Shown here: piece by piece, positions 28,631 through 48,600 of the stretch
How positions within the stretch are numbered: the first letter of the stretch is position 1
Layout of the letters: every line of letters starts with the position of its first letter
Source: Flectonema sp. DT1601
Taxonomy: Eukaryota
NCBI GenBank assembly: GCA_964019425.1
Contig: OZ025800.1
Coordinates: 930,001-994,000, forward strand
Direction: 5' to 3'
Length of the DNA stretch: 64,000 nucleotides
The notes under the pieces: generated by a model
What the model saw: only the letters and a program-made list of their open reading frames with translations
The model's database searches: none
Told to the model about the DNA's origin: nothing
Program-made: the position numbers and the translations under genes

Positions 28631-29297
28631 TAGGGTGTCCAACCCCTTCCTGAATCTCATATCCATGTCTGGAGGTTGTTATCGATGTTGATGAAACCGC
28701 ATCTCCAACCCTCGAAACCACGACTTGAAAGGGTCGCGGTTCACCCCTGACTCTACTCGATTGTGAATAGTAGTTACCTTGTGATCGTTCATCCTATAAA
28801 GTATGTAGCAACTCACGTTGTCTCGAATTAGCTTTGGCATATTGAAGAACGATTGACTGATGTAGATGGTTGAGATGTTGAGGTGTCGTCCACGAGAGAA
28901 GAGCTCAATGGATTTCTTCTGATCACATTCAAGTATGATGTCGTCCAATACTATCAGATTCCACAACTCCCGATTCAGGGTGTCGATGTCGAAAGTATCA
29001 ATTGAGTCATGGGCTTCGAAGATGGTTGGACAATCCTGAGCCTTCTTGTATAACTTTTCTTGCTTCTCTCCGAATATTTGGATGAGGTTGATACTTAGGT
29101 TAGTACAGAGAGGTTGAGATTATTGCGAGGGTGTCATAACAGGGTAGATTCTTGTCGAGTAACAGACTCATTACCACATTCGTCTTCCTACATCCCGAAG
29201 GTCCGGCAACCAGCATTCTGAACAGCCATTGCGGTGTTATGAGTGAGTTGTTTCTATACTGATGTGAGGCAGCCTGATCATAGTTCTTGATATTCAT
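28630..29297 (-). pseudogene. A32/FtsK-HerA-type DNA packaging ATPase of a Polinton/adintovirus/PLV-like element (inactivated)
   Basis: RMLVAGPSGCRKT (Walker A with G to R), SLY*PKY (in-frame TAA at 29100-29102 where Q is typical), LIVLDD (Walker B), LFSRGRHLNISTIYISQSFF..PKLIRDN. Frameshifted C-terminus GFINID...RFRKGLD. Confidence 0.8.
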
Positions 29298-29321
29298 CTC
29301 TTTTTAGATCCATAAGCTAAT

Positions 29322-29451
29322 AAACTTTGTGTGGAGCTGGCTGTATTTTTAAAACTTTGTGCGTGGAGCTGGCTGTTTTTTTGAAACTTTGTGCGTGGAG
29401 CTGGCTATTTTTTAAAACTTTGTGTGTGGAGCTGGCTGTTTTTTAAAACTT
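29322..29451. repeat. Left stub of the 32-bp satellite (~4 units)
   Basis: AAACTTTGTGYGTGGAGCTGGCTRTTTTTT units, cut off from the main array by the TIR element. Confidence 0.95.
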
Positions 29452-29511
29452 GGGAAAACCTCTAATCCAGACACAAAAGTTTCCGAAACCGCCAACTCTA
29501 TACAAAAAAAG

Positions 29512-29588
29512 TGCCTTGTGGCCTGTGGTTAAAAAATCCGCCACCCGGAATCGAACTTGCCGAATTTAAGGCAGACTTTTTTTTTTTT
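29512..29588 (+). promoter_or_regulatory. tRNA-like / Pol III-like cassette inside the left TIR
   Basis: 7-bp acceptor-like stem TGCCTTG/TAAGGCA, A-box-like TGGCCTGTGG at position 8, B-box-like GGAATCGAACT (AGTTCGATTCC on the minus strand), then T12. Confidence 0.45.
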
Positions 29589-30300
29589 CTGAAAAATGCG
29601 TTGAGTAATTTTAAATCTCCTCACAATTTTTTCTAAACAAACATGCCTGCTTCTGATGGGAGACACTTTTGGGACGCGTGACAAGTTCACAAAGAGTTTT
29701 TCTCAGATTATTTTGGACGTTCTTGCACCACGTCCGCCTGCCAATGTTTAGCTTGTACTAACATCATTGCCTCAAACCACCAGCACATCGTTTAAGGTGG
29801 TCTCTATGGAGGTGGGTGTTACAGTGGCACCAACTGCCCTTACATTGGCAACAGCTGTACAAGCACCCACTGAAGGGATGTAAGCACCTTGTTGACAAAG
29901 GCCCAAACGAAGATGCATCGATCATTGTATGCAAAAATGACTTCCAGGGATGAAGCCGACGGAAGACACAGAGGGGATGGATATATGGGGCAGACACTCT
30001 GGAACGTTGGTCAGACGCTTAATTGGCCCAAAGACGTACCCTGACCGAACGAATGTGGTGTGATTCAAAGGAGGGCTTGTTGTTTATGATCGGAAAATCA
30101 ATCTTCGTGTGCCAAAGAGCCATCGGGGCGCAGGATTGTAACTCCACCGCCTTTGCCAGGATAACCTTCGCCACAGCAACAGTCCGTACCTGACGGCACA
30201 AAACCTCGTATTCAAGTTATCAACAAGTTCCTCAAGTTATCAAGTACAGTTAGTCAGTACAGTTAGTCACTCAACATTGTGTTGACATTTTGAGGCAAAC

Positions 30301-30385
30301 AAAAAAAAAGGTTTGCAGCCGGGTTCGAACCCGCGAATTGCACCTCAGAAGACCGCGGTAACACCCACTGGGCCACCGTGTCAGC
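30301..30385 (-). promoter_or_regulatory. tRNA-derived Pol III-like cassette (A box, B box, oligo-T) originally next to the right TIR
   Basis: A-box TGGCCCAGTGG (30375-30365), B-box GGTTCGAACCC (30331-30321), T9 terminator. No complete cloverleaf. Confidence 0.55.
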
Positions 30386-30890
30386 AACAAAAAATAAATT
30401 TTTTTTTTTTTTTTTTGGTTACACTCGTCTGTGCTACCAAACTCTTTGTTTTTGTTCTTTTCACTTCTATGTTTTGTCTTTCTTTTATACTTTCTTTTTA
30501 ACTTAAGTCTGACAAATTGGAAAACACGGGAAACATAGGTAGGCTCCGCCTGAGGACGTAAGAAGAGCGGCAACGGAAAAATAAATGGTCACGCGTCCTT
30601 GAAATTGGACACATGAAGCTAATTCGGTTGCCATTCCTACCATCGATAAGGAAAAACAAAGAATCGAGCATATAACTAGAGCGGTGGTCAAAGACCACTT
30701 GAACAGCCCGAAGGCCTGCCCTCAAGAGAAATTTATAAGGAGAATAGGAGAAGAAGGAGACAGGAGTGTTGGATGAGACACTGCGACAACACCGAAGGTG
30801 ATGTGCAGTTACCCAACCAGGAGATGATTGATAATGATGAAAATACTAAAATAATAACAAATTGATATTGGCGACTACATGTCACCTACT

Positions 30891-33800
30891 TTACTTCCAA
30901 AGTCTAAGGTTAGATGTTTGTTCCATCCACCTTATGATCAACGCGAGTGATGGAAGCCACGCCAAAGTGAAGAGAGCTTCAAGGTTAGGAATTTCGTTGG
31001 CAATAATAAGTTCTCGATCGCGATCCCACTTGCCGGTCAGTGTTGAGAAGCCCAGGATTTTGAACCTGGCAGAGTCGAGTTTGGGAGATTGACATCCCTG
31101 CAGCAGGTGAACCTGTGAGGACGGTTCGCCACAAAATGGGCAGTCGATCGTCTTGCGCCAGTTCTGAATTAGCGGGTGACATCCTGTCCGGAAGTTCGCT
31201 ATCCGTATCTCGTCGGCTCTTTCCATCCCAGGAGGGTATTTAACGGAACGGCCTCTGATGAGGTGTTTGTAGCAGGTGTAACCACTCACGTTAAGCAGAT
31301 CCTTTTTGATGCAGCGCTTCACATGTGATGATCGCGAGAAGTACGTGCCTTTGACTAGCACAGGTCGGATGTTCTTGTTGTGCGCTGCTTCCTTTGCAAG
31401 CGCGTCAACTTCATCGTGAAACTCGATTCCAATGTGCGAGGGGATGAATTGCAAATGCACTTTCATCTCACACATGCGCAGGTATTCCAGTATCTTGAGG
31501 GACTCGGTATTCCTCTGTCTGCACCTTCCACCCAGCAGTTCATCCAGAAGGGATTTTGAGTCCGTGAATATCCTCACAGATTTCATTGAACGATCTTTGC
31601 TAAACACTGTTCTCAGATGTCTAGCCGCGTTCTTCAGAGCATGTTGTTCAGCCCTGTAGCTGCAGTCAGCTTGATAAAGCCTAGACGCGTAAGCAGATCG
31701 AAGGCCGCTACGTGACTTGGCAATATGAGCCGCACCGGCCGCGCCGGAAGCAGAGTAGGAGCCATCGCAGTTGATTACCATGTCGACAGGAGGCAACGTT
31801 CCAATGTACGACATGAACTTTTCTTTGTCCACCGCAGGGTTCGCGGACTTCGGAAATCCGCAGCTGTTGCTAATCCTAAGGTTCGTCGGAGATACCCAGG
31901 GTTCCATCGAGTCAGGCTGCACAAGGCACTGGCTTTCACGCTGACTATCAGTGCCAGGGATTAGGCCAGCCCAGTAGCTTTGTGTTGAGGCGAGTCTGTT
32001 TGTATTAGGTATCCAAGTCATGGCTTTATACCGGTAGTACGCAATTTTTGTCTGCTTTTCAATCTGACGTTTAAAAGGATACATGTCAGACTCCCACAAC
32101 AGTAACTCTCTTGGCGTACACTTGCTGCATCCAGTAACCAGTCTGGCGACCTTCCTCAGTTCGAAGTCGATGCTGTCAACGCTGCTGCTTATCAGCCAAC
32201 CAAAACTGTCAAGCGCATACGAGATTCTCGCGGTTACATAAAGGTTCTTAACCATGTTAAGAGTCTTGTAGTCCAGTTCGTACGGCTGGAGGCACTGCAG
32301 AAGTGATATCCCCCTCTTTAATTCTTCGTGAATCTTGCCTACTTGTTTGTGGAAGGTGAGCCTGTCGTCGATGTGAACCCCGAGGTATTTTACTGAGTCG
32401 ACTATCGGTAACAGAAAGGCAGTTTTGAATATTGTTCTCACAACCATAATGCTGTCCTCACGAACGACGTATTGCAGCATCAAGTTGTCGAGTTCTTCTT
32501 GTGTCTTGATTGGGATTCCTCCAATTTCAAGAATAGTTTCGCCACTTTGAAGCATGGGTCTGGGTGATTTGAGATTGATATGCTTCTCGATGTCACCATA
32601 GTCAAGTTTAAGCATGCGTTCCTCAACAGATCTAGAGAAAAGCAGTTCGCGATTACACGTATCGTTTAGTACTATGCCCTTCGAGCGAACATTCATCTTA
32701 AGCGCACAGGTTTTGGAGACTGATAAGGCCATGTCGTTTTCAAAACACCATTGATCCACTTTGTCGAGTACTAACTGAGCATTCGAAAGAGCTTCTTCCA
32801 TGTTTGATCCTGACACCACACATGCTGTGTCATCCGCATACAGAGCAGACGTCGTTGTTTCCTTCTCCAGTTCCAAAATCTTGCAGAGGTCATCAACGTA
32901 GATAAGATAGAGAAGAGGACCCAGGATCGATCCCTGGGGAACCCCCTTAGCCAGAGTACGGAATTCGCTAAAATACCCATTCGCTTCAACTCTAACCTTC
33001 CTGTTTGTAAGAAAGTCTGTGATCCATCTGATAATAACATTCGGAACACCCATCTTTACTAATTTTAATAAAAGTATCTTATGGTTGATCCTGTCAAACG
33101 CAGCAGTAAAGTCGAATGACAAGAACACTGATCTCTTTTCTTCCATGTGGCTCCTTACGATAGCATCTACTAGAACGGTGATCTGCTCGCAGGTATTTCT
33201 CCCCTTTCTGAATCCAGCCTGTAGTGGGCTGAGCGACGAATGTTTTGTGAGCCAGTGCATGAGTCGGTCATACACGAGCCTCTCCGCAAGTTTCCCAACA
33301 ACCGAGGTGAGCGTTATTGGTCTGAAACTCTTTAGTTCATTACGAGGTTTCCCTGCCTTGAACATGGGCTTGATTAGTCCCTGTTTCCATTGGTACGGTA
33401 CTTTTGAAGTCTTCCAGGAAGTGTTAATAATTCTCAAGAGGTATTCCACTGTTGCCGGAGTGAAGTTTTTGATCATCTCATTGTGAACTCCATCAGGTCC
33501 TGCAGCCTTGCGGGTCTTCAGGTTCTTAATCGCAGCTTTAATTTCAGCCATTGTGAAATCACAGCAAATATCTATTTCATTATCACCTTCTGAGAGTGCG
33601 GGGGCCTCTAGCGATAATATTTCCGATTTCGAGACAAACAGGTCCAAGAATGCTGATGGTAGATCGCAGTCAGAGATGTTGTTGACACTGATATCTTTAC
33701 CAGCATCTTGCTGCAGTTCTTTGATCTTCTTAAACGCAAAGGCAAAGTTGTTACCCTTGTCAAGTTGATCACGTAGGTGGACACCCTTCGATTTGGTAGA

Positions 33801-34802
33801 ATCTGGAGTTGACGTCTTCCACTTTCGTCTCCGTTTCCCTTTGAAAAGGAGACGTCGACGAATGAATTTAGCCGCCACTTCATGCAGTATGTTGTTAAAG
33901 AGCTTGGCATTCGCAGTTGCATCATCGGAGAGTCTTGATTTTCTAATTCTCTTTTCGAGCATGGTCCCAAAGCAGTTCCAGTCCGTAGACTTGAAGTCCC
34001 ATACAACGCGTTTCTTCGAACCTATCGTGGCCCGTGCAAGTTGGCACATGGGATCCAGTACGGTGTAGAGAGGTCGATGATCTGACCCATGTTTATTATC
34101 TTCTTCAATTGCACTAAATTCTTCAAGAACCATCGAGTTTGAAAAGAATACTACATCTGGCGAGGTACCACCCCCCGGGACGTCAGGAAAAGGCCTTGTG
34201 ATTGACCCCATCTTGTTAGCAACCAGTAGATCATTTTGAGCTGCCCATGCATGTAGAGTTGAACCTGCTCTCGTCGATTTAAGTGACCACACCGGATGAT
34301 GGGCATTAAAGTCACCCGCGACGATTGCTTTCGTTGAGACTGGAAGATCTGACTCTCTGATCATGCATCCCGGGGGAGCATAAACATTGATGATGTCAAT
34401 CTTTCCACCTATGTTGACCTTCACGACCTCGACATCATTAAAGTGTGGCGGAAGCTCCATGTTCAAACGCTGCTGAGTGTGGCATTTTTTCACCATAGAA
34501 ATAACCCCTCCACCTCGTGTTGCCCTATCATTCCGATAGGTGAAATAGTCCGTGTGCGAAATTACATCATTCGTCCAAGTCTCCTGTAGGCACAGTACGT
34601 CAGGCGCATAGGCATTAAGCAGCTTGTGAATATAAGCGCCTTTGTTCCCCATCGATCGACAGTTCCAGCTCAGTAGAGATATGAGAGAGTTGTCAGGGCC
34701 AGGGTTGCGTTCGACGTCGCCTGCCTTTAGCAGCAGTTCACGAGCCGTATCCTTTTCCACAAGTGAGTTGGTCGGACTGAGTTCATCCTCATCGTCATCT
34801 AG
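30891..34802 (-). CDS. LINE ORF2: 2A peptide, apurinic-like endonuclease, reverse transcriptase, RNase H, zinc finger
   Basis: LLLKAGDVERNPGP. APE motifs SWNCR, LQET, GDFNAH, SDH. RT motifs QAGFR, DFTAAFD, GVPQGS, YADD, KYLGV. RNase H motifs CDGS, AE, TDS, PSH. CPFC..HLL..C. No internal stops. Confidence 0.92.
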   Translation of the reverse strand, partial: LDDDEDELSPTNSLVEKDTARELLLKAGDVERNPGPDNSLISLLSWNCRSMGNKGAYIHKLLNAYAPDVLCLQETWTNDVISHTDYFTYRNDRATRGGGVISMVKKCHTQQRLNMELPPHFNDVEVVKVNIGGKIDIINVYAPPGCMIRESDLPVSTKAIVAGDFNAHHPVWSLKSTRAGSTLHAWAAQNDLLVANKMGSITRPFPDVPGGGTSPDVVFFSNSMVLEEFSAIEEDNKHGSDHRPLYTVLDPMCQLARATIGSKKRVVWDFKSTDWNCFGTMLEKRIRKSRLSDDATANAKLFNNILHEVAAKFIRRRLLFKGKRRRKWKTSTPDSTKSKGVHLRDQLDKGNNFAFAFKKIKELQQDAGKDISVNNISDCDLPSAFLDLFVSKSEILSLEAPALSEGDNEIDICCDFTMAEIKAAIKNLKTRKAAGPDGVHNEMIKNFTPATVEYLLRIINTSWKTSKVPYQWKQGLIKPMFKAGKPRNELKSFRPITLTSVVGKLAERLVYDRLMHWLTKHSSLSPLQAGFRKGRNTCEQITVLVDAIVRSHMEEKRSVFLSFDFTAAFDRINHKILLLKLVKMGVPNVIIRWITDFLTNRKVRVEANGYFSEFRTLAKGVPQGSILGPLLYLIYVDDLCKILELEKETTTSALYADDTACVVSGSNMEEALSNAQLVLDKVDQWCFENDMALSVSKTCALKMNVRSKGIVLNDTCNRELLFSRSVEERMLKLDYGDIEKHINLKSPRPMLQSGETILEIGGIPIKTQEELDNLMLQYVVREDSIMVVRTIFKTAFLLPIVDSVKYLGVHIDDRLTFHKQVGKIHEELKRGISLLQCLQPYELDYKTLNMVKNLYVTARISYALDSFGWLISSSVDSIDFELRKVARLVTGCSKCTPRELLLWESDMYPFKRQIEKQTKIAYYRYKAMTWIPNTNRLASTQSYWAGLIPGTDSQRESQCLVQPDSMEPWVSPTNLRISNSCGFPKSANPAVDKEKFMSYIGTLPPVDMVINCDGSYSASGAAGAAHIAKSRSGLRSAYASRLYQADCSYRAEQHALKNAARHLRTVFSKDRSMKSVRIFTDSKSLLDELLGGRCRQRNTESLKILEYLRMCEMKVHLQFIPSHIGIEFHDEVDALAKEAAHNKNIRPVLVKGTYFSRSSHVKRCIKKDLLNVSGYTCYKHLIRGRSVKYPPGMERADEIRIANFRTGCHPLIQNWRKTIDCPFCGEPSSQVHLLQGCQSPKLDSARFKILGFSTLTGKWDRDRELIIANEIPNLEALFTLAWLPSLALIIRWMEQTSNLRLWK

Positions 34803-36455
34803 TCAGTTGAGATCAAAGTCCGAATCGTTACTTTCCATTTCTACGTCACGGTTTTTATCACTATCCTGCTTAGCAGCAGATTCGGTGGGCGGTGTTGTTG
34901 TTTGTGCTGTTGCTGGTGCTGGCGTTGGTGCTGATGGTGCTGGCGCTGGTGTTGGTGCTGATGTCGGCTGCTGAGTTGGCTGTTGTGGTTGAGGAGTTGT
35001 TTTTTGTCTCTTCAGGGTTCCCGTTAGTTTTTGAGCCGCGTCGCCTGGGTTGTAGGTTGGGCCTAGCGGTTTTCTGTCAGTTCGTTTAACTTCTTTGTTT
35101 ATCACAAGGTATTCATTAGTACCTATGCTTACGAAGTTGGGCGGTTGAGATTTCGCAATTGCAACAATTGTAGTACTCCCTCCTTTATGGAAAGAAGCAA
35201 CAACTGTGTGTTCCCAGTTGTGTGAGGACTTCAAGAAGTCGCTGATCTGCGCTGTTGAGTACTTACGAATCGCCATCGAATTTATAACAAACCTGTCGCC
35301 CGAGGGCAGTGCAGGCTTGATTGCCGCGTTGAGCTTAATGCTGACCCTGATATTACAGTCAGGGTGGACTCGGAGTCCAAAACAGCTTTTAAACCTGCAC
35401 ATGTAGAATTTTCCTTTGAATTCATCAAGTGCAGAAGTCTTGGACTTCGCTGCCAGGAAGCCAAGGTCGTTTTTGAATTGCAACGTTGGCCAAACGTCAC
35501 TTCCGTTCGACCAACTCGGGTTTCTGAAAAAGACATTCTTGGGTTTGTCAGTTTCGGGTTCGCTGTTGTTGTATTCCAGAACCTCGTGTACTTGGTTTCT
35601 GGGGACTCTGAAAGCCATCGAGGTGTGGGACTCGTTCTTTCTGTAGCTAAAGGGGTCCGCCTTTATCTTCAATTTCTTTAGAATATCGGTCGTTTTGACG
35701 GTCAATTCTTTCTCAGCTGATTTTCCCCAGTCTTGGATGAATAGAACTGGGTTGGGAGTTGGAATCTGGTGGCTAGTTGCTGCTTTAGAAAAGTCGTCAC
35801 CAAATACGTGCGTGTAAAATACGCGCCTGATCTCGCAGACGCCACCCTTTTTTATCACCGGTAATGCTACTGGAACGGTGCTCTTTGTGAGCGGGATTTT
35901 GCTGATAGCAGCCCAACGGCCGCTCTTCTTTGTTTGGCGGAGTGCTTCTAAGTCTAGCTTCGAACGAACTAAAACAAGACCAGAGGTAAGGTTGTTTGTA
36001 GCATTAGCTGCTACGTCGTAACTGATGGTGGCCACAGCGCCTGCCCACGCACCGTGAATGTGCCACTCCGGGTAGCTTGCTTTTGCCTTTCCCTTCGTGG
36101 TTTGATTGTCCTTCATTGCTGTCGGTATCGGCAATGAGAACGGCTTCGTACTCGTTTGTTGATTAGAAGCTGTAGATGCTCCTGTAGTTGGTTGGTTGAC
36201 ACCTGTGGTTGAGGGTGTCGTCGCTTCTGCTGCCGTCGTCGCGGTCGCTTCCGTCCCACCACTCCCATCGAGTGTGTCCGGTGTCCTCCTCTTCATCTCC
36301 GGGTTCCCACCTTCTGACCCAGCTACGAATTGAACGATCTCCATTAGGAGATTTGCCACCCTTCTTTCCTTCTCTTGCTCCGGGATCCCGTCTTCTCCCA
36401 CTATCTTCAGGAGGTTTATTGCCTCCGATACCAACCTCTTCAGGTTGTCTCTCAT
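34803..36455 (-). CDS. LINE ORF1 (550 aa, basic, no recognisable CCHC knuckle)
   Basis: ATG 36455 to TGA 34805-34803. Lies between the element 5' end and ORF2, in the same frame as ORF2. Confidence 0.85.
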   Translation of the reverse strand: MRDNLKRLVSEAINLLKIVGEDGIPEQEKERRVANLLMEIVQFVAGSEGGNPEMKRRTPDTLDGSGGTEATATTAAEATTPSTTGVNQPTTGASTASNQQTSTKPFSLPIPTAMKDNQTTKGKAKASYPEWHIHGAWAGAVATISYDVAANATNNLTSGLVLVRSKLDLEALRQTKKSGRWAAISKIPLTKSTVPVALPVIKKGGVCEIRRVFYTHVFGDDFSKAATSHQIPTPNPVLFIQDWGKSAEKELTVKTTDILKKLKIKADPFSYRKNESHTSMAFRVPRNQVHEVLEYNNSEPETDKPKNVFFRNPSWSNGSDVWPTLQFKNDLGFLAAKSKTSALDEFKGKFYMCRFKSCFGLRVHPDCNIRVSIKLNAAIKPALPSGDRFVINSMAIRKYSTAQISDFLKSSHNWEHTVVASFHKGGSTTIVAIAKSQPPNFVSIGTNEYLVINKEVKRTDRKPLGPTYNPGDAAQKLTGTLKRQKTTPQPQQPTQQPTSAPTPAPAPSAPTPAPATAQTTTPPTESAAKQDSDKNRDVEMESNDSDFDLN

Positions 36456-36615
36456 AATTGCTTTTTCCAATAAAGTACAGAAACTGTAGCTTTAGAATCG
36501 TTGGAATAAATTTTATAATTCTTTCATTGGGGGATTGTTACTCCCGTGACAAAATTTTTTTTTGTATAGAGTTGGCGGTTTCGGAAACTTTTGTGTTCGG
36601 ATTAGGGGTTTTCCC

Positions 36616-39600
36616 TTAAAACTTTGTGCGTGGAGCTGGCAGTTTTTTTGAAACTTTGTGCGTGGAGCCGGCTGTTTTTTTGAAACTTTGTGTGTGGAGC
36701 TTGCTATTTTTTAAAACTTTGTGTGTGGAGCTGGCTGTTTTTTTGAAACTTTGTGGAGCTGGCTATTTTTTAAAACTTTGTGTGTGGTGCTGGCAGTTTT
36801 TTTGAAATTTTGTGCGTGGAGCTGGCTGTTTTTTTGAAACTTTGTGCGTGGAGCCGGCTGTTTTTTTGAAACTTTGTGTGTGGAGCTGGCTATTTTTTAG
36901 AACTTTGTATGGAGCTGGCTGTTTATTAAAACTTTGTGTCTGGAGCTGGCATTTTTTTGAAACTTTGTGTGGAGCTAGCAGTTTTTTTGAAACTTTGTGC
37001 GTGGAGCCGGCTGTTTTTTTGAAACTTTGTGTGTGGAGCTGGCAGTTTTTTTGAAACTTTGTGCGTGGAGTTGGCTGTTTTTTTGAAACTTTGTGCGTGG
37101 AGCCGGCTATTTTTTAAAACTTTGTGTGTGGAGCTGGCAGTTTTTTTGAAACTTTGTGCGTGGAGCTGGCTGTTTTATTGAAACTTTGTGTGTGGAGCTG
37201 GCTATTTTTTAAAACTTTGTGTGTGGAGCTGGCAGTTTTTTTGAAACTTTGTGCGTGGAGCTGGCTGTTTTATTGAAACTTTGTGTGTGGAGCTGGCTGT
37301 ATTTTTGAAACTTTGTGCGTGGAGCCGGCTGTTTTTTTGAAACTTTGCGTGGAGCTGGCTGTATTTTTGAAACTTTGTGCGTGGAGCCGGCTGTTTTTTT
37401 GAAACTTTGTGCGTGGAGCTGGCTGTTTTTTTGAAACTTTGTGCGTGGAGCTGGCTGTATTTTTGAAACTTTGTGCGTGGAGCCGGCTGTTTTATTGAAA
37501 CTTTGGGTGTGGAGCTGGCTGTTTTTTTGAAACTTTGTGCGTGGAGCTGGCTGTATTTTTGAAACTTTGTGCGTGGAGCCGGCTGTTTTTTTGAAACTTT
37601 GTGCGTGGAGCTGGCTGTTTTTTTGAAACTTTGTGCGTGGAGCTGGCTGTATTTTTGAAACTTTGTGCGTGGAGCCGGCTGTTTTATTGAAACTTTGGGT
37701 GTGGAGCTGGCTGTTTTTTTGAAACTTTGTGCGTGGAGCTGGCTGTATTTTTGAAACTTTGTGCGTGGAGCCGGCTGTTTTTTTGAAACTTTGTGCGTGG
37801 AGCTGGCTGTTTTTTTGAAACTTTGTGTGGAGCTAGCTGTTTTTTAAAACTTTGTGTGTTGAGCTGGCTATATTTTTGAAACTTTGTGTGTGGAGCTGGC
37901 TGTATTTTTGAAACTTTGTGTGTGGAGCCGTCTGTTTATTCGAAACTTTGTGTGTGGAGCTGGCTGTTTTTTTGAAACTTTGTGCGGAGCTGGCTGTTTT
38001 TTCAAAAATTTGTGCGTGGAGCTGGCTGTTTTTTTGCAACTTTGTGTAGCAGGCTATTTTTTAAAACTTTGTGTGTGGAGCTGGCTGTTTTTTTGAAACT
38101 TTGTGCGTGGAGCCGGCTGTTTTTTTGAAACTTTGTGCGTGGAGCTGGCTGTTTTTTTGAAACTTTGTGTGGAGCTAGCTGTTTTTTAAAACTTTGTGTG
38201 TTGAGCTGGCTATATTTTTGAAACTTTGTGTGTGGAGCTGGCTGTATTTTTGAAACTTTGTGCGTGGAGCTGGCTGTTTTATTGAAACTTTGTGTGTGGA
38301 GCTGGCTGTATTTTTGAAACTTTGTGCGTGGAGCCGGCTGTTTTTTTGAAACTTTGCGTGGAGCTGGCTGTATTTTTGAAACTTTGTGCGTGGAGCCGGC
38401 TGTTTTTTTGAAACTTTGTGCGTGGAGCTGGCTGTTTTTTTGAAACTTTGTGCGTGGAGCTGGCTGTATTTTTGAAACTTTGTGCGTGGAGCCGGCTGTT
38501 TTATTGAAACTTTGGGTGTGGAGCTGGCTGTTTTTTTGAAACTTTGTGCGTGGAGCTGGCTGTATTTTTGAAACTTTGTGCGTGGAGCCGGCTGTTTTTT
38601 TGAAACTTTGTGCGTGGAGCTGGCTGTTTTTTTGAAACTTTGTGCGTGGAGCTGGCTGTATTTTTGAAACTTTGTGCGTGGAGCCGGCTGTTTTATTGAA
38701 ACTTTGGGTGTGGAGCTGGCTGTTTTTTTGAAACTTTGTGCGTGGAGCTGGCTGTATTTTTGAAACTTTGTGCGTGGAGCCGGCTGTTTTTTTGAAACTT
38801 TGTGCGTGGAGCTGGCTGTTTTTTTGAAACTTTGTGTGGAGCTAGCTGTTTTTTAAAACTTTGTGTGTTGAGCTGGCTATATTTTTGAAACTTTGTGTGT
38901 GGAGCTGGCTGTATTTTTGAAACTTTGTGTGTGGAGCCGTCTGTTTATTCGAAACTTTGTGTGTGGAGCTGGCTGTTTTTTTGAAACTTTGTGCGGAGCT
39001 GGCTGTTTTTTCAAAAATTTGTGCGTGGAGCTGGCTGTTTTTTTGCAACTTTGTGTAGCAGGCTATTTTTTAAAACTTTGTGTGTGGAGCTGGCTGTTTT
39101 TTTGAAAATTTGTGCGTGGAGCTGGCAGTTTTTTTGAAACTTTGTGTGTGGAGCTGGCAGTTTTTTGAAACTTTGCGTGGAGCTGGCTGTATTTTTGAAA
39201 CTTTGTGCGTGGAGCCGGCTGTTTTTTTGAAACTTTGTGCGTGGAGCCGGCTGTTTTATTGAAACTTTGTGCGTGGAGCTGGCAGTTTTTTGAAACTTTG
39301 TGCGTGGAGCTGGCTGTATTTTTGAAACTTTGTGCGTGGAGCCGGCTGTTTTTTTGAAACTTTGCGTGGAGCTGGCTGTATTTTTGAAACTTTGTGCGTG
39401 GAGCCGGCTGTTTTTTTGAAACTTTGTGCGTGGAGCTGGCTGTTTTTTTGAAACTTTGTGTGTGGAGCTGGCTGTTTTTTTGCAACTTTGTGCGTGGAGC
39501 TGGCTGTTTTTTTGAAACTTTGTGTGGAGCTAGCTGTTTTTTAAAACTTTGTGTGTTGAGCTGGCTATATTTTTGAAACTTTGTGTGTGGAGCTGGCTGT

Positions 39601-42600
39601 TTTTTTGAAACTTTGTGTGGAGCTAGCTGTTTTTTAAAACTTTGTGTGTTGAGCTGGCTGTATTTTTGAAACTTTGTGTGTGGAGCCGTCTGTTTATTCG
39701 AAACTTTGTGTGTGGAGCTGGCTGTTTTTTTGAAACTTTGTGCGGAGCTGGCTGTTTTTTTAAAACTGTGTGCGTGGAGCTGGCTGTTTTTTTGCAACTT
39801 TGTGGAGCAGGCTATTTTTTAAAACTTTGTGTGTGGAGCTGGCTGTTTTTTTGAAAATTTGTGTGTGGAGCTGGCTATTTTTTAAACCTTTGTGTGTGGA
39901 GCTGGCAGTTTTTTTGAAACTTTGTGCGTGGAGCTGGCAGTTTTTTTGAAACTTTGTGTGTGGAACTAGCAGTTTTTTGAAACTTTGTGTGTGGAGCTGG
40001 CTGTTTTTTTGAAACTTTTTACGTTGAGCCAGCTGTTTTTTCGAAACTTTGTGTGTGGAGCTGGCTGTTTTTTTGAAACTTTGTGCGGAGCTGGCTGTTT
40101 TTTTAAAACTTTGTGCGTGGAGCTGGCTGTTTTTTTGCAACTTTGTGGAGCAGGCTATTTTTTAAAACTTTGTGTGTGGAGCTGGCTATTTTTTAAACCT
40201 TTGTGTGTGGAGCTGGCAGTTTTTTTGAAACTTTGTGCGTGGAGCTGGCAGTTTTTTTGAAACTTTGTGTGTGGAGCTGGCAGTTTTTTGAAACTTTGTG
40301 CGTGGAGCTGGCTGTTTTTTTGAAACTTTTTGCGTGGAGCCGGCTGTTTTTTCGAAACTTTGTGTGTGGAGCTGGCTGTTTTTTTGAAACTTTGTGCGTG
40401 GAGCTGGCTGTTTTTTTGAAAATTTTTGTGTGGAGCTGGCTATTTTTTAAACCTTTGTGTGTGGAGCTGGCAGTTTTTTTGAAACTTTGTGCGTGGAGCT
40501 GGCAGTTTTTTTGAAACTTTGTGTGTGGAGCTGGCAGTTTTTTGAAACTTTGTGCGTGGAGCTGGCTGTTTTTTTGAAACTTTTTGCGTGGAGCCGGCTG
40601 TTTTTTTGAAACTTTGTGTGTGGAGCTGGCTGTTTTTTTGAAACTTTGTGCGTGGAGCTGGCTGTTTTTTTGAAAATTTTTGTGTGGAGCTGGCTATTTT
40701 TTAAAACTTTGTGTGTAGAACTGGCAGTTTTTTTAAAACTTTGTGCGTGGAGCTGGCTGTTTTTTTGAAAATTTGTTTGTGGAGCTGGCTATTTTTTAAA
40801 ACTTTGTGTGTGGAGCTGGCTGTTTCTTTGAAACTTTTTGCGTGGAGCCGGCTGTTTTTTTGAAACTTTGTGTGTGGAGCTGGCTGTTTTTTTGAAACTT
40901 TATGTGTGGAGCTGGCTGTTTTTTTGAAACTTTGTGTGGAGCTAGCTGTTTTTTAAAACTTTGTGTGTTGAGCTGGCTGTATTTTTGAAACTTTGTGTGT
41001 GGAGCCGTCTGTTTTTTCGAAACTTTGTGTGTGGAGCTGGCTGTTTTTTTGAAACTTTGTGCGTGGAGCTGGCTGTTTTTTTGAAAATTTTTGTGTGGAG
41101 CTGGCTGTTTCTTAAAACTTTGTGTGTGGAGCTGGCTGTTTTTTTGAAACTTTGTGCGTGGAGCTGGCTGTTTTTTTGAAAATTTTTGTGTGGAACTAGC
41201 TGTTTTTTAAAACTTTGTGTGTGGAGCTGGCTGTTTTTTTGAAACTTTGTGTGTGGAGCTGGCTGTTTTTTTGAAACTTTGTGCGTGGAGCTGGCTGTTT
41301 TTTTGAAAATTTTTGTGTGGAGCTGGCTGTTTTTTAAAACTTTGTGTGTGGAGCTGGCTGTTTTTTTGAAACTTTGTGTGGAGCTAGCTGTTTTTTAAAA
41401 CTTTGTGTGTTGAGCTGGCTGTATTTTTGAAACTTTGTGTGTGGAGCCGTCTGTTTTTTCGAAACTTTGTGTGTGGAGCTTGCTGTTTTTTTGAAACTTT
41501 GTGTGTGGAGCTGGCTGTTTTTTTGAAACTTTGTGCGGAGCTGGCTGTTTTTTTAAAACTTTGTGCGTGGAGCTGGCTGTTTTTTTGATAATTTGTGTGT
41601 GGAGCTGGCTGTTTTTTTGAAAATTTGTGTGTGGAGCTGGCTATTTTTTAAACCTTTGTGTGTGGAGCTGGCAGTTTTTTTGAAACTTTGTGCGTGGAGC
41701 TGGCAGTTTTTTTGAAACTTTGTGTGTGGAGCTGGCAGTTTTTTGAAACTTTGTGCGTGGAGCTGGCTGTTTTTTTGAAACTTTTTGCGTGGAGCCGGCT
41801 GTTTTTTCGAAACTTTGTGTGTGGAGCTGGCTGTATTTTTGAAACTTTGTGTGTGGAGCCGTCTGTTTTTTCGAAACTTTGTGTGTGGAGCTTGCTGTTT
41901 TTTTGAAACTTTGTGTGTGGAGCTGGCTGTTTTTTTGAAACTTTGTGCGGAGCTGGCTGTTTTTTTAAAACTTTGTGCGTGGAGCTGGCTGTTTTTTTGC
42001 AACTTTGTGGAGCAGGCTATTTTTTAAAACTTTGTGTGTGGAGCTGGCTATTTTTTAAACCTTTGTGTGTGGAGCTGGCAGTTTTTTTGAAACTTTGTGC
42101 GTGGAGCTGGCAGTTTTTTTGAAACTTTGTGTGTGGAGCTGGCAGTTTTTTGAAACTTTGTGCGTGGAGCTGGCTGTTTTTTTGAAACTTTTTGCGTGGA
42201 GCCGGCTGTTTTTTCGAAACTTTGTGTGTGGAGCTTGCTGTTTTTTTGAAACTTTGTGTGTGGAGCTGGCTGTTTTTTTGAAACTTTGTGTGTGGAGCTG
42301 GCTGTTTTTTTGAAAATTTTTGTGTGGAGCTGGCTATTTTTTAAAACTTTGTGTGTAGAACTGGCAGTTTTTTTAAAACTTTGTGCGTGGAGCTGGCTGT
42401 TTTTTTGAAAATTTGTTTGTGGAGCTGGCTATTTTTTAAAACTTTGTGTGTGGAGCTGGCTGTTTCTTTGAAACTTTTTGCGTGGAGCCGGCTGTTTTTT
42501 TGAAACTTTGTGTGTGGAGCTGGCTGTTTTTTTGAAACTTTGTGTGTGGAGCTGGCTGTTTTTTTGAAACTTTGTGTGGAGCTAGCTGTTTTTTAAAACT

Positions 42601-45600
42601 TTGTGTGTTGAGCTGGCTGTATTTTTGAAACTTTGTGTGTGGAGCCGTCTGTTTTTTCGAAACTTTGTGTGTGGAGCTGGCTGTTTTTTTGAAACTTTGT
42701 GCGTGGAGCTGGCTGTTTTTTTGAAAATTTTTGTGTGGAGCTGGCTGTTTTTTAAAACTTTGTGTGTGGAGCTTGCTGTTTTTTTGAAACTTTGTGTGTG
42801 GAGCTGGCTGTTTTTTTGAAACTTTGTGCGTGGAGCTGGCTGTTTTTTTGAAAATTTTTGTGTGGAGCTGGCTGTTTTTTAAAACTTTGTGTGTGGAGCT
42901 GGCTGTTTTTTTGAAACTTTGTGCGTGGAGCTGGCTGTTTTTTAAAAACTTTGTGCGTGGAGCTGGCTGTTTTTTTGAAAATTTGTGTGGAGCTGGCTAT
43001 TTTTTAAAACTTTGTGTGTGGAGCAGGCTATTTTTTAAAACTTTGTGTGTGGAGCTGGCTGTTTTTTTGAAACTTTGTGCGGAGCTGGCTGTTTTTTTAA
43101 AACTTTGTGCGTGGAGCTGGCTGTTTTTTTGATAATTTGTGTGTGGAGCTGGCTGTTTTTTTGATAATTTGTGTGTGGAGCTGGCTATTTTTTAAAACTT
43201 TGTGTGTGGAGCAGGCAGTTTTTTAGAAACTTTGTGCGGAGCTAGCTGTTTTTTTAAAACTTTGTGCGTGGAGCTGGCTGTTTTTTTGAAACTTTGTGCG
43301 TGGAGCTGGTAGTTTTTTTGAAACTTTGTGCGTGGAGTTGGCTGTTTTTTTTAAACTTTGTGCGTGGAGCTGGCTGTTTTTTTGAAACTTTGTGTGGAGC
43401 TAGCTGTTTTTTAAAACTTTGTGTGTTGAGCTGGCTGTATTTTTGAAACTTTGTGTGTGGAGCTGGCTGTATTTTTGAAACTTTTTATGTGGAGCCGTCT
43501 GTTTTTTAAAAACTTTGTGTGTGGAGCTGGCTGTTTTTTTGAAACTTTGTGCGGAGCTGGCTGTTTTTTTAAAACTTTGTGCGTGGAGCTGGCTGTTTTT
43601 TTGATAATTTGTGTGTGGAGCTGGCTGTTTTTTTGAAAATTTGTGTGGAGCTGGCTATTTTTTAAAACTTTGTGTGTGGAGCAGGCTATTTTTTAAAACT
43701 TTGTGTGTGGAGCTGGCTGTTTTTTTGAAACTTTGTGCGGAGCTGGCTATTTTTTTAAAACTTTGTGCGTGGAGCTGGCTGTTTTTTTGATAATTTGTGT
43801 GTGGAGCTGGCTGTTTTTTTGATAATTTGTGTGTGGAGCTGGCTATTTTTTAAAACTTTGTGTGTGGAGCAGGCAGTTTTTTAGAAACTTTGTGCGGAGC
43901 TGGCTGTTTTTTTAAAACTTTGTGCGTGGAGCTGGCTGTTTTTTTGATAATTTGTGTGTGGAGCTGGCTGTTTTTTTGAAAATTTGTGCGTGGAGCTGGC
44001 TATTTTTTAAAACTTTGTGTGTGGAGCAGGCAGTTTTTTAGAAACTTTGTGCGTGGAGCTGGCAGTTTTTTTGAAACTTTGTGTGTGGAGCTGGCCGTTT
44101 TTTGAAACTTTGTGCGTGGAGTTGGCTGCTTTTTTGAAACCTTGTGTGGAGCTAGCTGTTTTTTAAAACTTTGTGTGTTGAGCTGGCTGTATCTTTGAAA
44201 CTTTGTGTGCGGGGCTGTTTTATTGAAAATTTTTGTGTGGAGCTGGCTATTTTTTAAAAACTTTGTGCGTGGAGCTGGCTGTTTTTTTGAAACTTTGTGC
44301 GTGGAGCTGGCTGTTTTTTTGAAAATTTGTGTGGAGCTGGCTATTTTTTAAAACTTTGTGTGTGGAGCAGGCTATTTTTTAAAACTTTGTGTGTGGAGCT
44401 GGCTGCTTTTTTGAAACTTTGTGCGGAGCTGGCTGTTTTTTTAAAACTTTGTGCGTGGAGCTGGCTGTTTTTTTGATAATTTGTGTGTGGAGCTGGCTGT
44501 TTTTTTGATAATTTGTGTGTGGAGCTGGCTATTTTTTAAAACTTTGTGTGTGGAGCAGGCAGTTTTTTAGAAACTTTGTGCGTGGAGCTGGCAGTTTTTT
44601 TGAAACTTTGTGTGTGGAGCTGGCCGTTTTTTGAAACTTTGTGCGTGGAGTTGGCTGTTTTTTTGAAACCTTGTGTGGAGCTAGCTGTTTTTTAAAACTT
44701 TGTGTGTTGAGCTGGTTGTATTTTTGAAACTTTGTGTGTGGAGCTGGCAGTTTTTTGAAACTTTGTGCGTGGAGCTGGCTGTTTTTTTGAAACTTTTTGC
44801 GTGGAGCCGGCTGTTTTTTTGAAACTTTGTGTGTGGAGCTGGCTGTTTTTTTGAAACTTTGTGCGTGGAGCTGGCTGTTTTTTTGAAAATTTTTGTGTGG
44901 AGCTGGCTATTTTTTAAAACTTTGTGTGTAGAACTGGCAGTTTTTTTAAAACTTTGTGCGTGGAGCTGGCTGTTTTTTTGAAAATTTGTTTGTGGAGCTG
45001 GCTATTTTTTAAAACTTTGTGTGTGGAGCTGGCTGTTTCTTTGAAACTTTTTGCGTGGAGCCGGCTGTTTTTTTGAAACTTTGTGTGTGGAGCTGGCTGT
45101 TTTTTTGAAACTTTATGTGTGGAGCTGGCTGTTTTTTTGAAACTTTGTGTGGAGCTAGCTGTTTTTTAAAACTTTGTGTGTTGAGCTGGCTGTATTTTTG
45201 AAACTTTGTGTGTGGAGCCGTCTGTTTTTTCGAAACTTTGTGTGTGGAGCTGGCTGTTTTTTTGAAACTTTGTGCGTGGAGCTGGCTGTTTTTTTGAAAA
45301 TTTTTGTGTGGAGCTGGCTGTTTCTTAAAACTTTGTGTGTGGAGCTGGCTGTTTTTTTGAAACTTTGTGCGTGGAGCTGGCTGTTTTTTTGAAAATTTTT
45401 GTGTGGAACTAGCTGTTTTTTAAAACTTTGTGTGTGGAGCTGGCTGTTTTTTTGAAACTTTGTGTGTGGAGCTGGCTGTTTTTTTGAAACTTTGTGCGTG
45501 GAGCTGGCTGTTTTTTTGAAAATTTTTGTGTGGAGCTGGCTGTTTTTTAAAACTTTGTGTGTGGAGCTGGCTGTTTTTTTGAAACTTTGTGTGGAGCTAG

Positions 45601-48600
45601 CTGTTTTTTAAAACTTTGTGTGTTGAGCTGGCTGTATTTTTGAAACTTTGTGTGTGGAGCCGTCTGTTTTTTCGAAACTTTGTGTGTGGAGCTTGCTGTT
45701 TTTTTGAAACTTTGTGTGTGGAGCTGGCTGTTTTTTTGAAACTTTGTGCGGAGCTGGCTGTTTTTTTAAAACTTTGTGCGTGGAGCTGGCTGTTTTTTTG
45801 CAACTTTGTGGAGCAGGCTATTTTTTAAAACTTTGTGTGTGGAGCTGGCTATTTTTTAAACCTTTGTGTGTGGAGCTGGCAGTTTTTTTGAAACTTTGTG
45901 CGTGGAGCTGGCAGTTTTTTTGAAACTTTGTGTGTGGAGCTGGCAGTTTTTTGAAACTTTGTGCGTGGAGCTGGCTGTTTTTTTGAAACTTTTTGCGTGG
46001 AGCCGGCTGTTTTTTCGAAACTTTGTGTGTGGAGCTTGCTGTTTTTTTGAAACTTTGTGTGTGGAGCTGGCTGTTTTTTTGAAACTTTGTGTGTGGAGCT
46101 GGCTGTTTTTTTGAAAATTTTTGTGTGGAGCTGGCTATTTTTTAAAACTTTGTGTGTAGAACTGGCAGTTTTTTTAAAACTTTGTGCGTGGAGCTGGCTG
46201 TTTTTTTGAAAATTTGTTTGTGGAGCTGGCTATTTTTTAAAACTTTGTGTGTGGAGCTGGCTGTTTCTTTGAAACTTTTTGCGTGGAGCCGGCTGTTTTT
46301 TTGAAACTTTGTGTGTGGAGCTGGCTGTTTTTTTGAAACTTTGTGTGTGGAGCTGGCTGTTTTTTTGAAACTTTGTGTGGAGCTAGCTGTTTTTTAAAAC
46401 TTTGTGTGTTGAGCTGGCTGTATTTTTGAAACTTTGTGTGTGGAGCCGTCTGTTTTTTCGAAACTTTGTGTGTGGAGCTGGCTGTTTTTTTGAAACTTTG
46501 TGCGTGGAGCTGGCTGTTTTTTTGAAAATTTTTGTGTGGAGCTGGCTGTTTTTTAAAACTTTGTGTGTGGAGCTTGCTGTTTTTTTGAAACTTTGTGTGT
46601 GGAGCTGGCTGTTTTTTTGAAACTTTGTGCGTGGAGCTGGCTGTTTTTTTGAAAATTTTTGTGTGGAGCTGGCTGTTTTTTAAAACTTTGTGTGTGGAGC
46701 TGGCTGTTTTTTTGAAACTTTGTGCGTGGAGCTGGCTGTTTTTTAAAAACTTTGTGCGTGGAGCTGGCTGTTTTTTTGAAAATTTGTGTGGAGCTGGCTA
46801 TTTTTTAAAACTTTGTGTGTGGAGCAGGCTATTTTTTAAAACTTTGTGTGTGGAGCTGGCTGTTTTTTTGAAACTTTGTGCGGAGCTGGCTGTTTTTTTA
46901 AAACTTTGTGCGTGGAGCTGGCTGTTTTTTTGATAATTTGTGTGTGGAGCTGGCTGTTTTTTTGATAATTTGTGTGTGGAGCTGGCTATTTTTTAAAACT
47001 TTGTGTGTGGAGCAGGCAGTTTTTTAGAAACTTTGTGCGGAGCTAGCTGTTTTTTTAAAACTTTGTGCGTGGAGCTGGCTGTTTTTTTGAAACTTTGTGC
47101 GTGGAGCTGGTAGTTTTTTTGAAACTTTGTGCGTGGAGTTGGCTGTTTTTTTTAAACTTTGTGCGTGGAGCTGGCTGTTTTTTTGAAACTTTGTGTGGAG
47201 CTAGCTGTTTTTTAAAACTTTGTGTGTTGAGCTGGCTGTATTTTTGAAACTTTGTGTGTGGAGCTGGCTGTATTTTTGAAACTTTTTATGTGGAGCCGTC
47301 TGTTTTTTAAAAACTTTGTGTGTGGAGCTGGCTGTTTTTTTGAAACTTTGTGCGGAGCTGGCTGTTTTTTTAAAACTTTGTGCGTGGAGCTGGCTGTTTT
47401 TTTGATAATTTGTGTGTGGAGCTGGCTGTTTTTTTGAAAATTTGTGTGGAGCTGGCTATTTTTTAAAACTTTGTGTGTGGAGCAGGCTATTTTTTAAAAC
47501 TTTGTGTGTGGAGCTGGCTGTTTTTTTGAAACTTTGTGCGGAGCTGGCTGTTTTTTTAAAACTTTGTGCGTGGAGCTGGCTGTTTTTTTGATAATTTGTG
47601 TGTGGAGCTGGCTGTTTTTTTGATAATTTGTGTGTGGAGCTGGCTATTTTTTAAAACTTTGTGTGTGGAGCAGGCAGTTTTTTAGAAACTTTGTGCGGAG
47701 CTGGCTGTTTTTTTAAAACTTTGTGCGTGGAGCTGGCTGTTTTTTTGATAATTTGTGTGTGGAGCTGGCTGTTTTTTTGAAAATTTGTGCGTGGAGCTGG
47801 CTATTTTTTAAAACTTTGTGTGTGGAGCAGGCAGTTTTTTAGAAACTTTGTGCGTGGAGCTGGCAGTTTTTTTGAAACTTTGTGTGTGGAGCTGGCCGTT
47901 TTTTGAAACTTTGTGCGTGGAGTTGGCTGCTTTTTTGAAACCTTGTGTGGAGCTAGCTGTTTTTTAAAACTTTGTGTGTTGAGCTGGCTGTATCTTTGAA
48001 ACTTTGTGTGCGGGGCTGTTTTATTGAAAATTTTTGTGTGGAGCTGGCTATTTTTTAAAAACTTTGTGCGTGGAGCTGGCTGTTTTTTTGAAACTTTGTG
48101 CGTGGAGCTGGCTGTTTTTTTGAAAATTTGTGTGGAGCTGGCTATTTTTTAAAACTTTGTGTGTGGAGCAGGCTATTTTTTAAAACTTTGTGTGTGGAGC
48201 TGGCTGCTTTTTTGAAACTTTGTGCGGAGCTGGCTGTTTTTTTAAAACTTTGTGCGTGGAGCTGGCTGTTTTTTTGATAATTTGTGTGTGGAGCTGGCTG
48301 TTTTTTTGATAATTTGTGTGTGGAGCTGGCTATTTTTTAAAACTTTGTGTGTGGAGCAGGCAGTTTTTTAGAAACTTTGTGCGTGGAGCTGGCAGTTTTT
48401 TTGAAACTTTGTGTGTGGAGCTGGCCGTTTTTTGAAACTTTGTGCGTGGAGTTGGCTGTTTTTTTGAAACCTTGTGTGGAGCTAGCTGTTTTTTAAAACT
48501 TTGTGTGTTGAGCTGGTTGTATTTTTGAAACTTTGTGTGTGGGGCTGTTTTATTGAAAATTTTTGTGTGGAGCTGGCTATTTTTTAAAAACTTTGTGCGT

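What the first reader, a model, noticed from the sequence alone, without database searches (positions are those of the whole stretch)
29443..36624. Retrotransposon bounded by DNA-transposon TIRs and a 9-bp TSD: nested insertion or composite mobile unit
Seen: 59-bp TIRs and a perfect TTAAAACTT TSD enclose 7.16 kb whose only intact genes are LINE ORF1 and ORF2. The LINE 5' end abuts the right TIR, and its own poly(A) and probable TSD sit in the A/T tract at the inner TIR edge. Known: G-starting TIRs with 9-bp TSDs are typical of Mutator-like elements. Inference: most simply, a LINE inserted into a ~1 kb non-autonomous MULE that had inserted in the satellite. Both TIRs remain intact, so the composite could be moved by cut-and-paste, and the TIR may act as the LINE promoter.
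Basis: partly seen in the sequence, partly recalled or inferred. Interest (0 to 1): 0.72.

Follow-up and report, generated by a model that had tools for sequence, protein, structure and literature searches.

The report
Spliced-leader-capped LINE inside a DNA transposon
A retrotransposon in a marine-type protist genome (likely a diplonemid) sits inside a small DNA transposon, most likely by an ordinary one-off jump, but the copy begins with the host's spliced-leader mRNA tag and has its two genes in one frame around a single stop codon, so it was likely copied from a trans-spliced mRNA and is predicted to make its enzyme by reading through that stop.

Summary
The 59-bp TIRs (56/59) and the 9-bp TSD are real. 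A public-run contig joins the ~1-kb body to the right TIR without the 6.1-kb LINE, and the LINE's own 10-bp TSD lies at 30393-30402 / 36505-36514, 52 bp inside the TIR. This is most likely a one-off nesting in a non-autonomous Mutator- or Merlin-type element; copies could not be counted (no genome). The interesting part is the LINE. Its 5' end (36504-36468) is 37 of the 39 nt of the euglenozoan spliced leader, fused to a 12-nt UTR and ORF1. One sister copy clearly, and two probably, show the same tag. Trypanosome LINEs avoid trans-splicing. ORF1 and ORF2 are in frame, split by one TGA followed by CTAG (a known readthrough context); the AUG-free linker holds a 2A ribosome-skip motif and the first endonuclease strand. 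ORF1 ends in Asn in 7 of 8 divergent relatives. Best model: host read-through transcription, trans-splicing, stop readthrough plus 2A release of ORF2p, then TPRT. Expression is untested.

The parts
29443..29451 (.). Left copy of the 9-bp TSD of the TIR element (part of a satellite unit)
29452..29510 (+). Left TIR, 59 nt, begins GGG; its inner part resembles about 1.5 satellite units
29511..30392 (.). Body of the non-autonomous TIR element, left part; no intact ORF, no Pfam family at cut-off
   Evidence: 99% match to X5 record 24 over 29579-30384
30310..30382 (-). tRNA-like A box and B box followed by a T9 run; the only strict B box in the window; not called a tRNA
   Evidence: ARAGORN 0 genes; no Rfam tRNA match
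30393..30402 (.). Left copy of the LINE's 10-bp TSD (AATAAATTTT)
   Evidence: (D10)
30403..30416 (-). LINE poly(A) tail (T run 30399-30416 on +, the first four T shared with the TSD)
30417..30890 (-). LINE 3' UTR, 474 nt
   Evidence: matched by contigs of X1, X2, X3
30891..34802 (-). ORF2 frame, open from the codon after the ORF1 stop: 50-codon linker, APE, RT (YADD 32840-32829), RNase H (four acidic residues, 31769-31401), CCHC knuckle (31142-31092). First ATG at 34652 lies after the APE 'WN' strand
34695..34721 (-). 2A ribosome-skip motif GDVERNPGP
   Evidence: motif definition PMC3708506
34799..34805 (-). ORF1 stop TGA plus CTAG, predicted readthrough site
   Evidence: context described in PMC13517186
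34803..36455 (-). ORF1, 550 aa, no Pfam; core predicted as three small alpha/beta domains, the first RRM/ACT-like
36456..36467 (-). 12-nt 5' UTR of the LINE
36468..36504 (-). Spliced-leader exon, nt 3-39, forming the 5' end of the LINE copy
36505..36514 (.). Right copy of the LINE's 10-bp TSD
36515..36556 (.). Body of the TIR element, right part (42 nt)
   Evidence: X5 record 24, letters 1-82
36557..36615 (-). Right TIR, 59 nt
36616..36624 (.). Right copy of the 9-bp TSD
29322..29451 (+). Four units of the 32-bp satellite left of the insertion
36619..52404 (+). Main 32-bp satellite array, about 503 units

Best explanation
This is likely a one-off nested insertion: a full-length LINE copy that begins with the host's spliced leader lies, between 10-bp duplications, inside a ~1.05-kb gene-less TIR element that itself lies, between 9-bp duplications, in a 32-bp satellite. 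Steps. (1, inferred) The TIR element was placed by a Mutator- or Merlin-type transposase supplied in trans. (2, inferred from the fused leader) A parent LINE was transcribed within a longer host transcript and trans-spliced 12 nt before ORF1. (3, predicted) Most ribosomes stop at the ORF1 UGA; a few read through UGA-CUAG, translate the linker and skip at the 2A motif, releasing ORF2p with its endonuclease N-terminus whole. (4, inferred from poly(A), TSD and a TTTT/A junction) ORF2p nicked the AT-rich body and copied the mRNA to within 2 nt of its capped end. (5, untested) The new copy has no promoter of its own; it faces the same way as the host gene cluster to its left and would need read-through and a new splice acceptor to be expressed. 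The TIRs do not take part in the LINE's cycle.
For: Nesting order: X5 record 24 (948 nt) has letters 1-82 on 36586-36505 and letters 138-948 on 30384-29579, i.e. it bridges the LINE's place (table 8). LINE moves alone: ORF2 cluster 101 members, ORF1 cluster 20 members on many contigs; this LINE's 3' UTR (with poly(A) in two of them) is joined to other LINE copies, not to the TIR body, in P0191, P0220 and P0176. Leader: 35 of 37 letters equal nt 3-39 of row 'Euglenozoa 14' in PMC3795323 (compared by eye); 1 copy in the window, 0 of 100 shuffles; in 4 of 5 runs (3 samples) the same letters sit without a mismatch in another shared context, with GT after it where flanks are listed and AA before it in the 3 runs whose upstream flank is listed, as in a leader gene. 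Other copies: P0191 has FCTLL, the leader's 3' half in the same frame as here, right before its 5' UTR; P0184 and P0185 start at the position of the leader's last codon. Diplonemid mRNAs essentially all carry the leader (PMC10161547); nearest named relatives are Flectonema neradi transcripts. Recoding: one stop in 1854 codons from ORF1 start to ORF2 end, no in-frame ATG in the linker; this is the only TGACTA among 87 stops that end frames of 100 codons or more in the window; UGACUA(G) supports readthrough in viruses and human genes (PMC13517186); ORF1 ends in Asn in 7 of 8 relatives of 25-74% identity whose tails otherwise differ; linker and 2A are kept in the P0002 family and a Flectonema element. 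All 13 host ORFs that I checked left of the element are on the LINE's strand.
Against: No genome, so empty elements, free LINEs and composites were not counted. Leader tags in other copies are read from protein letters only; 3 chance five-residue hits occurred elsewhere among the stored proteins, and 1 of the 4 N-terminal extensions seen (P0247) has no leader peptide. Readthrough context is shown at DNA level for this one copy. Several relatives have a Met before the 2A or just before the WN strand (P0005, P0003, P0010, P0200), so re-initiation may serve those families; the most distant ORF1 (P0232) does not end in Asn. Readthrough of UGA-CUAG has not been shown in diplonemids in what I read.
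Confidence: 0.66

Rival explanations
1. The composite is a mobile unit: the intact TIRs carry the LINE by cut-and-paste, and it has been amplified as such.
For: Both TIRs are intact (56/59) and the 9-bp TSD is perfect, so excision is chemically possible if a transposase exists. D. papillatum has MULE-like ORFs (PMC10161547).
Against: A LINE-free form exists as DNA; the LINE's own TSD and tail are intact, as expected for a later TPRT event; other copies of the LINE 3' end have other neighbours. No second composite was seen.
Confidence: 0.07
2. Nesting as above, but the leader-capped copy is a dead-end processed copy: master elements have their own promoter or 5' signature (as L1Tc/ingi do), and trans-spliced RNAs are copied only now and then.
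For: Trans-splicing removes everything upstream of the acceptor, and trypanosomatid LINE RNAs are unspliced for that reason (PMC1874656). The 5' UTR of P0191/P0184/P0185 (57 nt) is longer than the one here (12 nt); P0247 shows 40 upstream codons without leader.
Against: Two subfamilies (ORF1 74% identical) carry the leader at the 5' end, and the longer UTR is itself leader-capped; this copy is 99% identical to other intact copies and has an AG 5 nt before the ATG, after the T-rich leader end, that could be reused.
Confidence: 0.3
3. ORF2 is not made by readthrough but by re-initiation or a non-AUG start in the linker (GTG/CTG), or from a second trans-spliced mRNA; the TGA-CTAG is incidental.
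For: Gene callers start P0121/P0130 at the linker GTG; a Flectonema relative has a Met before its 2A; a short +1-frame ORF starts 4 nt after the stop. Re-initiation is known for SART1 (PMC3894237).
Against: In-frame order, the exact heptamer, the conserved last Asn of ORF1 and a 2A that would free ORF2p from an upstream product all fit readthrough together.
Confidence: 0.25
4. The LINE chose this site because of the Pol III-type A/B boxes 11-20 nt downstream, as dictyostelid elements target tRNA genes.
For: The only strict B box in 64 kb lies beside the insertion; RNase H-bearing NLTR-A/B elements insert 2-6 or ~50 bp upstream of tRNA genes (PMC5006619).
Against: One site; the motif is not a tRNA; other copies sit next to LINE sequence; the TTTT/A junction explains the site on its own.
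Confidence: 0.08
5. The leader-LINE junction is an assembly chimera.
For: Such a doubt was raised for leader-bearing elements in Schistosoma (PMC5832876).
Against: The junction ends exactly at the leader's splice donor, is bounded by a TSD whose partner lies 6.1 kb away, and recurs at another acceptor in P0191.
Confidence: 0.03

Closest known systems
Trypanosomatid L1Tc / ingi (Ingi clade)
   Same: APE-RT-RNase H, poly(A), TSD, 2A motif directly before APE, euglenozoan host (PMC12278014; PMC3708506).
   Different: They have no ORF1, begin with the Pr77 promoter/ribozyme and make unspliced RNAs. This element has a 550-aa ORF1 in frame before the 2A and begins with the spliced leader.
2A-bearing LINEs that keep ORF1 (CR1-26_BF, CR1-53_BF, CR1-1_LG)
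   Same: ORF1 plus a 2A in the N-terminal region of ORF2 (PMC3708506, PMC3894237).
   Different: The passages read do not describe an in-frame stop with a readthrough context; here RNase H is present and the RT groups with RNase H-bearing hits.
Dinoflagellate retrogenes with relict spliced leaders
   Same: mRNA copied to DNA with its leader; possible re-use of an AG for the next round (PMC5585692).
   Different: There the passengers are host genes; here it is the autonomous LINE itself, with tail and TSD.
Leader-fused elements in Schistosoma mansoni
   Same: Six genomic leader exons merged to transposable elements, proposed as trans-spliced retrocopies (PMC5832876).
   Different: Left open there as possible chimeric assembly; in the passages read no junction, TSD or family analysis.
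SLACS / CZAR / CRE
   Same: Euglenozoan non-LTR elements found next to leader sequence.
   Different: They insert into leader genes and use a restriction-like endonuclease. Here the leader is on the 5' side only, lacks its intron and upstream flank, and the endonuclease is APE.
Non-autonomous Mutator-like or Merlin elements
   Same: G-starting TIRs, 9-bp TSD, no transposase. Merlin: GG ends, 8- or 9-bp TSD, present in Euglena and kinetoplastids. MULE 9-bp TSD: recalled.
   Different: No transposase found, so the superfamily is open; the TIR resembles the host satellite unit.
Alphavirus and human UGA-CUA(G) readthrough
   Same: Same heptamer (PMC13517186).
   Different: Here followed by a 2A motif in a LINE; activity untested.

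Membership tests
APE-type non-LTR retrotransposon (LINE) | APE and RT domains with catalytic motifs | tested here: met
   Pfam RVT_1 E 9.5e-33, Exo_endo_phos_2 E 1.7e-13; motifs placed
APE-type non-LTR retrotransposon (LINE) | 3' poly(A) and TSD, no LTR | tested here: met
Ingi clade | RNase H after RT | tested here: met
   Four acidic residues conserved in alignment A2; Pfam RNase_H precomputed for P0003, P0005, P0008; direct PDB match only weak, E 0.26
Ingi clade | 2A motif directly before APE | tested here: met
Ingi clade | Single ORF, no ORF1 | tested here: not met
   550-aa ORF1, separated by a stop; definition from PMC3708506
Ingi clade | 5' Pr77 promoter/ribozyme signature | tested here: not met
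   The copy's 5' end is 37 nt of leader plus 12 nt; an unspliced master copy cannot be excluded
Ingi clade | RT groups with ingi/L1Tc | not testable with these tools
   No labelled ingi or L1Tc sequence was obtained; the tree of the top 60 hits shows a 10-row clade (100/99) inside a mostly RNase H-bearing group
CRE / SLACS | Restriction-like endonuclease; insertion into leader genes | tested here: not met
   APE present; leader on one side only, without intron
Mutator-like (MULE) | TIR starting with G, 9-bp TSD (recalled) | tested here: met
   one insertion only
Mutator-like (MULE) | MULE DDE transposase in the element or in an autonomous partner with the same TIR | tested here: inconclusive
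   No Pfam hit in 6 frames of the body; no partner reachable
Merlin | Terminal GG, TIR 24-462 bp, 8- or 9-bp TSD | tested here: met
Merlin | DDE_Tnp_IS1595 transposase | tested here: inconclusive
Composite mobile unit | Same internal junctions at several loci with different outer TSDs | not testable with these tools
   No genome held
Euglenozoan spliced-leader exon | 39-nt leader sequence; GT donor after it in the gene | tested here: met
Programmed stop-codon readthrough | In-frame UGA with CUA(G) context and conserved coding downstream | tested here: met
   (DNA context for this copy only)
Programmed stop-codon readthrough | Measured readthrough | not testable with these tools
   needs a reporter or ribosome profiling

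The most novel reading that the evidence does not exclude
A diplonemid LINE clade has given up its own promoter: it spreads through leader-trans-spliced mRNAs cut from host polycistronic transcripts, each generation re-using a downstream AG (5' UTR 57 nt in one subfamily, 12 nt here), and it sets its ORF1:ORF2 ratio by a two-step code, UGA-CUAG readthrough followed by 2A skipping.
Probability: 0.38. Interest if true: 0.8.

Novelty: new variant of a known kind. Interest (0 to 1): 0.6.

Why it matters
The nesting itself is ordinary. The LINE bears on two open points. First, trypanosomatid LINEs are held to stay autonomous by escaping trans-splicing (PMC1874656); a sister lineage with intact, recent copies made from trans-spliced RNA would show the opposite solution, and the leader gives a built-in marker of full-length copying and of each generation's splice site. 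Second, how ORF2 of two-ORF LINEs is translated is called an open question in PMC3894237; an in-frame leaky stop plus a 2A is a concrete, cheaply testable answer for one clade. My four searches on these two points listed no paper that describes either feature for a diplonemid LINE, judged from listings and the passages read; the library lacks most subscription journals and Repbase.

Tried and rejected
TIR pattern scans: 0 hits in metagenome, viral and prokaryote contigs; leader-UTR junction: 0 hits in viral contigs; ORF1 and ORF2 relatives: none confirmed among 116 and 16 pattern matches. These collections are not expected to hold this genome. Run search listed 5 holders with shares 0.06-0.15 and no RNA holder; this says nothing on expression. 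X1-X3 gave no cover of the TIR or body, and X5 none of the LINE beyond short repeat matches; holes in contigs prove nothing and are not used. One search was meant to show the 55 unseen letters of X5 record 24; X5 laid 0 records. The 38-letter match in X1-X4 was first read as a sister LINE's UTR, then rejected for the leader gene. The 12-bp A/T TSD at the TIR edge was rejected. UGA as a sense codon was rejected: TGA ends 4 of 14 host ORFs checked and Trp is TGG. Search for a fused ORF1-ORF2 protein: none among 7984 candidates, weak. tRNA and Rfam scans of the body: nothing credible. TIR-satellite likeness: a gapped test was equalled by the best of 1000 shuffles; the ungapped test was not reached by 300. 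ORF1: no Pfam, no Foldseek match at E 0.001, best VIA Z 7.0 to RRMs, tied with ACT and other small folds; the Atlas gave no result. Earlier findings of this scan: 4 look-ups, nothing. Supplement 1 of PMC10161547, which covers leader and repeats, was too large to read and may bear on novelty.


Full report
Host. No genome is held. A BILBO1_N match, one-strand gene clustering and Flectonema neradi as the nearest named relative of both LINE proteins point to a diplonemid. TGA is a normal stop here (4 of 14 host ORFs checked).

Outer element. The arms 29452-29510 and 36557-36615 match at 56 of 59 and are flanked by TTAAAACTT inside a 32-bp satellite. The body has no ORF and no Pfam family at cut-off in 6 of 6 frames. 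G-starting TIRs with a 9-bp TSD fit Mutator (recalled) and Merlin (PMC8101967, passages) alike; without a transposase the superfamily stays open. The TIR aligns without gaps to the satellite (scores 23 and 25; 300 dinucleotide shuffles gave 10.8 +/- 1.6, best 17), though a looser gapped test was equalled once by the best of 1000 shuffles. The satellite may descend from such TIRs, or attract the transposase; neither was tested.

Order of events. Five public runs hold a small share of the stretch; four were laid and four. X5 record 24 (948 nt, depth 2) lies with letters 1-82 on 36586-36505 and letters 138-948 on 30384-29579 (8 other letters, 7 gaps). It bridges the LINE's place, so a form without the 6.1-kb LINE exists as DNA. 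The contig also shows that 36505-36556 belongs to the TIR element, so the LINE does not abut the TIR. The 10-mer AATAAATTTT at 30393-30402 and 36505-36514 bounds the LINE exactly, and the empty site would read TTTT/A at the nick, as TPRT on a poly(A) needs (established knowledge, recalled). The empty element would be 1052 nt. The LINE is a family in its own right: 101 ORF2 and 20 ORF1 cluster members (40 and 20 read, 15 each listed), many at 99% identity, with sister clusters of 37, 26, 74 and 42. In P0191, P0220 and P0176 this LINE's 3' UTR is joined to other LINE copies. Nothing supports movement of the composite.

The 5' end. Window 36504-36468 (minus) equals nt 3-39 of the 39-nt leader 'Euglenozoa 14' at 35 of 37 (PMC3795323, one table passage; that this row is the Diplonema leader is recalled). 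It occurs once in the window. In X1-X4 (3 samples) the same letters, without mismatch, lie in another shared context, with GT after them and, in the three runs whose upstream flank is listed, AA before them: the leader gene. In the window the leader is followed by 12 nt and the ORF1 ATG, not by the intron, and it is on the 5' side only, unlike SLACS/CRE insertions into leader genes (PMC12278014, passages). So the copy was made from a trans-spliced RNA; the two missing letters may reflect the methylated cap (recalled, untested). Of 4 ORF1 proteins with called N-terminal extensions, P0191 shows the leader's 3' half in the same frame as here, P0184 and P0185 start where the leader's last codon would be, and P0247 shows no leader peptide. 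Their UTR is 57 nt and ends in letters compatible with the acceptor used here. Trypanosomatid L1Tc and ingi RNAs are unspliced, which the authors link to autonomy (PMC1874656, passages). Precedents: dinoflagellate retrogenes (PMC5585692, passages) and six unverified leader-element fusions in Schistosoma (PMC5832876, passages).

The coding arrangement. ORF1 and ORF2 are one frame with a single stop, TGA at 34805-34803, followed by CTAG. The 50-codon linker has no in-frame ATG, holds GDVERNPGP, and holds the APE 'WN' strand, which the first ATG (34652) would miss. This is the only TGACTA among 87 long-frame stops in the window. UGACUA(G) is a readthrough context in alphaviruses and human genes (PMC13517186, passages). 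ORF1 ends in Asn in 7 of 8 relatives of 25-74% identity with unlike tails, which suggests constraint on the codon before the stop. The linker and 2A are kept in the P0002 family and in a Flectonema element. Against: DNA context is seen for this copy only, and P0005, P0003, P0010 and P0200 have a Met that could start ORF2. In print, 2A goes with loss of ORF1, with three named exceptions, and Ingi elements lack ORF1 (PMC3708506, passages; PMC3894237, parts 1 and 2 of 3). PMC5009743 (passages) names frameshifting and unknown initiation for non-LTR elements, not readthrough, in the four places found.

Proteins. ORF2 has intact APE, RT, RNase H and CCHC motifs. In an RT tree of the window and the top 60 of 2427 hits, ten rows, all Flectonema transcripts or unnamed ENA contigs plus the window, form a clade (100/99) among mostly RNase H-bearing hits; no labelled Ingi reference was available. 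ORF1 has 6 relatives among 1.84 billion representatives; its core folds at pLDDT 81, and the first domain is RRM/ACT-like at Z up to 7.0, a common score.

Verdict. The LINE is a new variant of a known kind: leader-capped (shown for this copy, about 0.95) and predicted to use readthrough plus 2A (about 0.7). Interest 0.6. Other papers opened: PMC10161547 (passages, list of supplements, search of 7 supplements with no hit; file 1 unreadable), PMC12153298 (passages), PMC5006619 (passages).

Noticed in passing
window 28400-29320, minus strand: Frameshifted packaging-ATPase remnant (Pfam Pox_A32, E 1.2e-5; Walker A in another frame), like those of Polintons and virophages, directly left of the satellite.
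   Followed up: partly
window 52400-58177: A second foldback-type element in the satellite: inverted arrays of ~142-bp units, 170-nt inner inverted arms (55107-55276 / 56759-56928, 96%), and a 284-aa ORF (55772-56626) that looks by eye like a truncated transposase; no Pfam hit. Part of its left arm is duplicated around a satellite piece (53219-53670).
   Followed up: partly
window 36557-36615 against 36619-52404: The TIR resembles about 1.5 units of the satellite in which it sits (0 of 300 shuffles reach the ungapped score); shared origin or target attraction.
   Followed up: partly
window 30310-30382 and 29545-29560, minus strand: Pol III-type A/B boxes with a T run near one end of the TIR element and a looser B box near the other.
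   Followed up: partly
proteins P0191, P0220, P0203, P0176: Head-to-tail junctions in which a LINE 3' end or poly(A) stands directly before a full or 5'-truncated copy, sometimes of another subfamily; template jumping or insertion at LINE 5' ends.
   Followed up: no
window 27628-62293: The satellite and TE block separates a minus-strand gene cluster from a plus-strand kinase gene (62294-63196), like a divergent strand-switch region.
   Followed up: no
window 1818-2816, minus strand: BspA-type leucine-rich-repeat gene.
   Followed up: no
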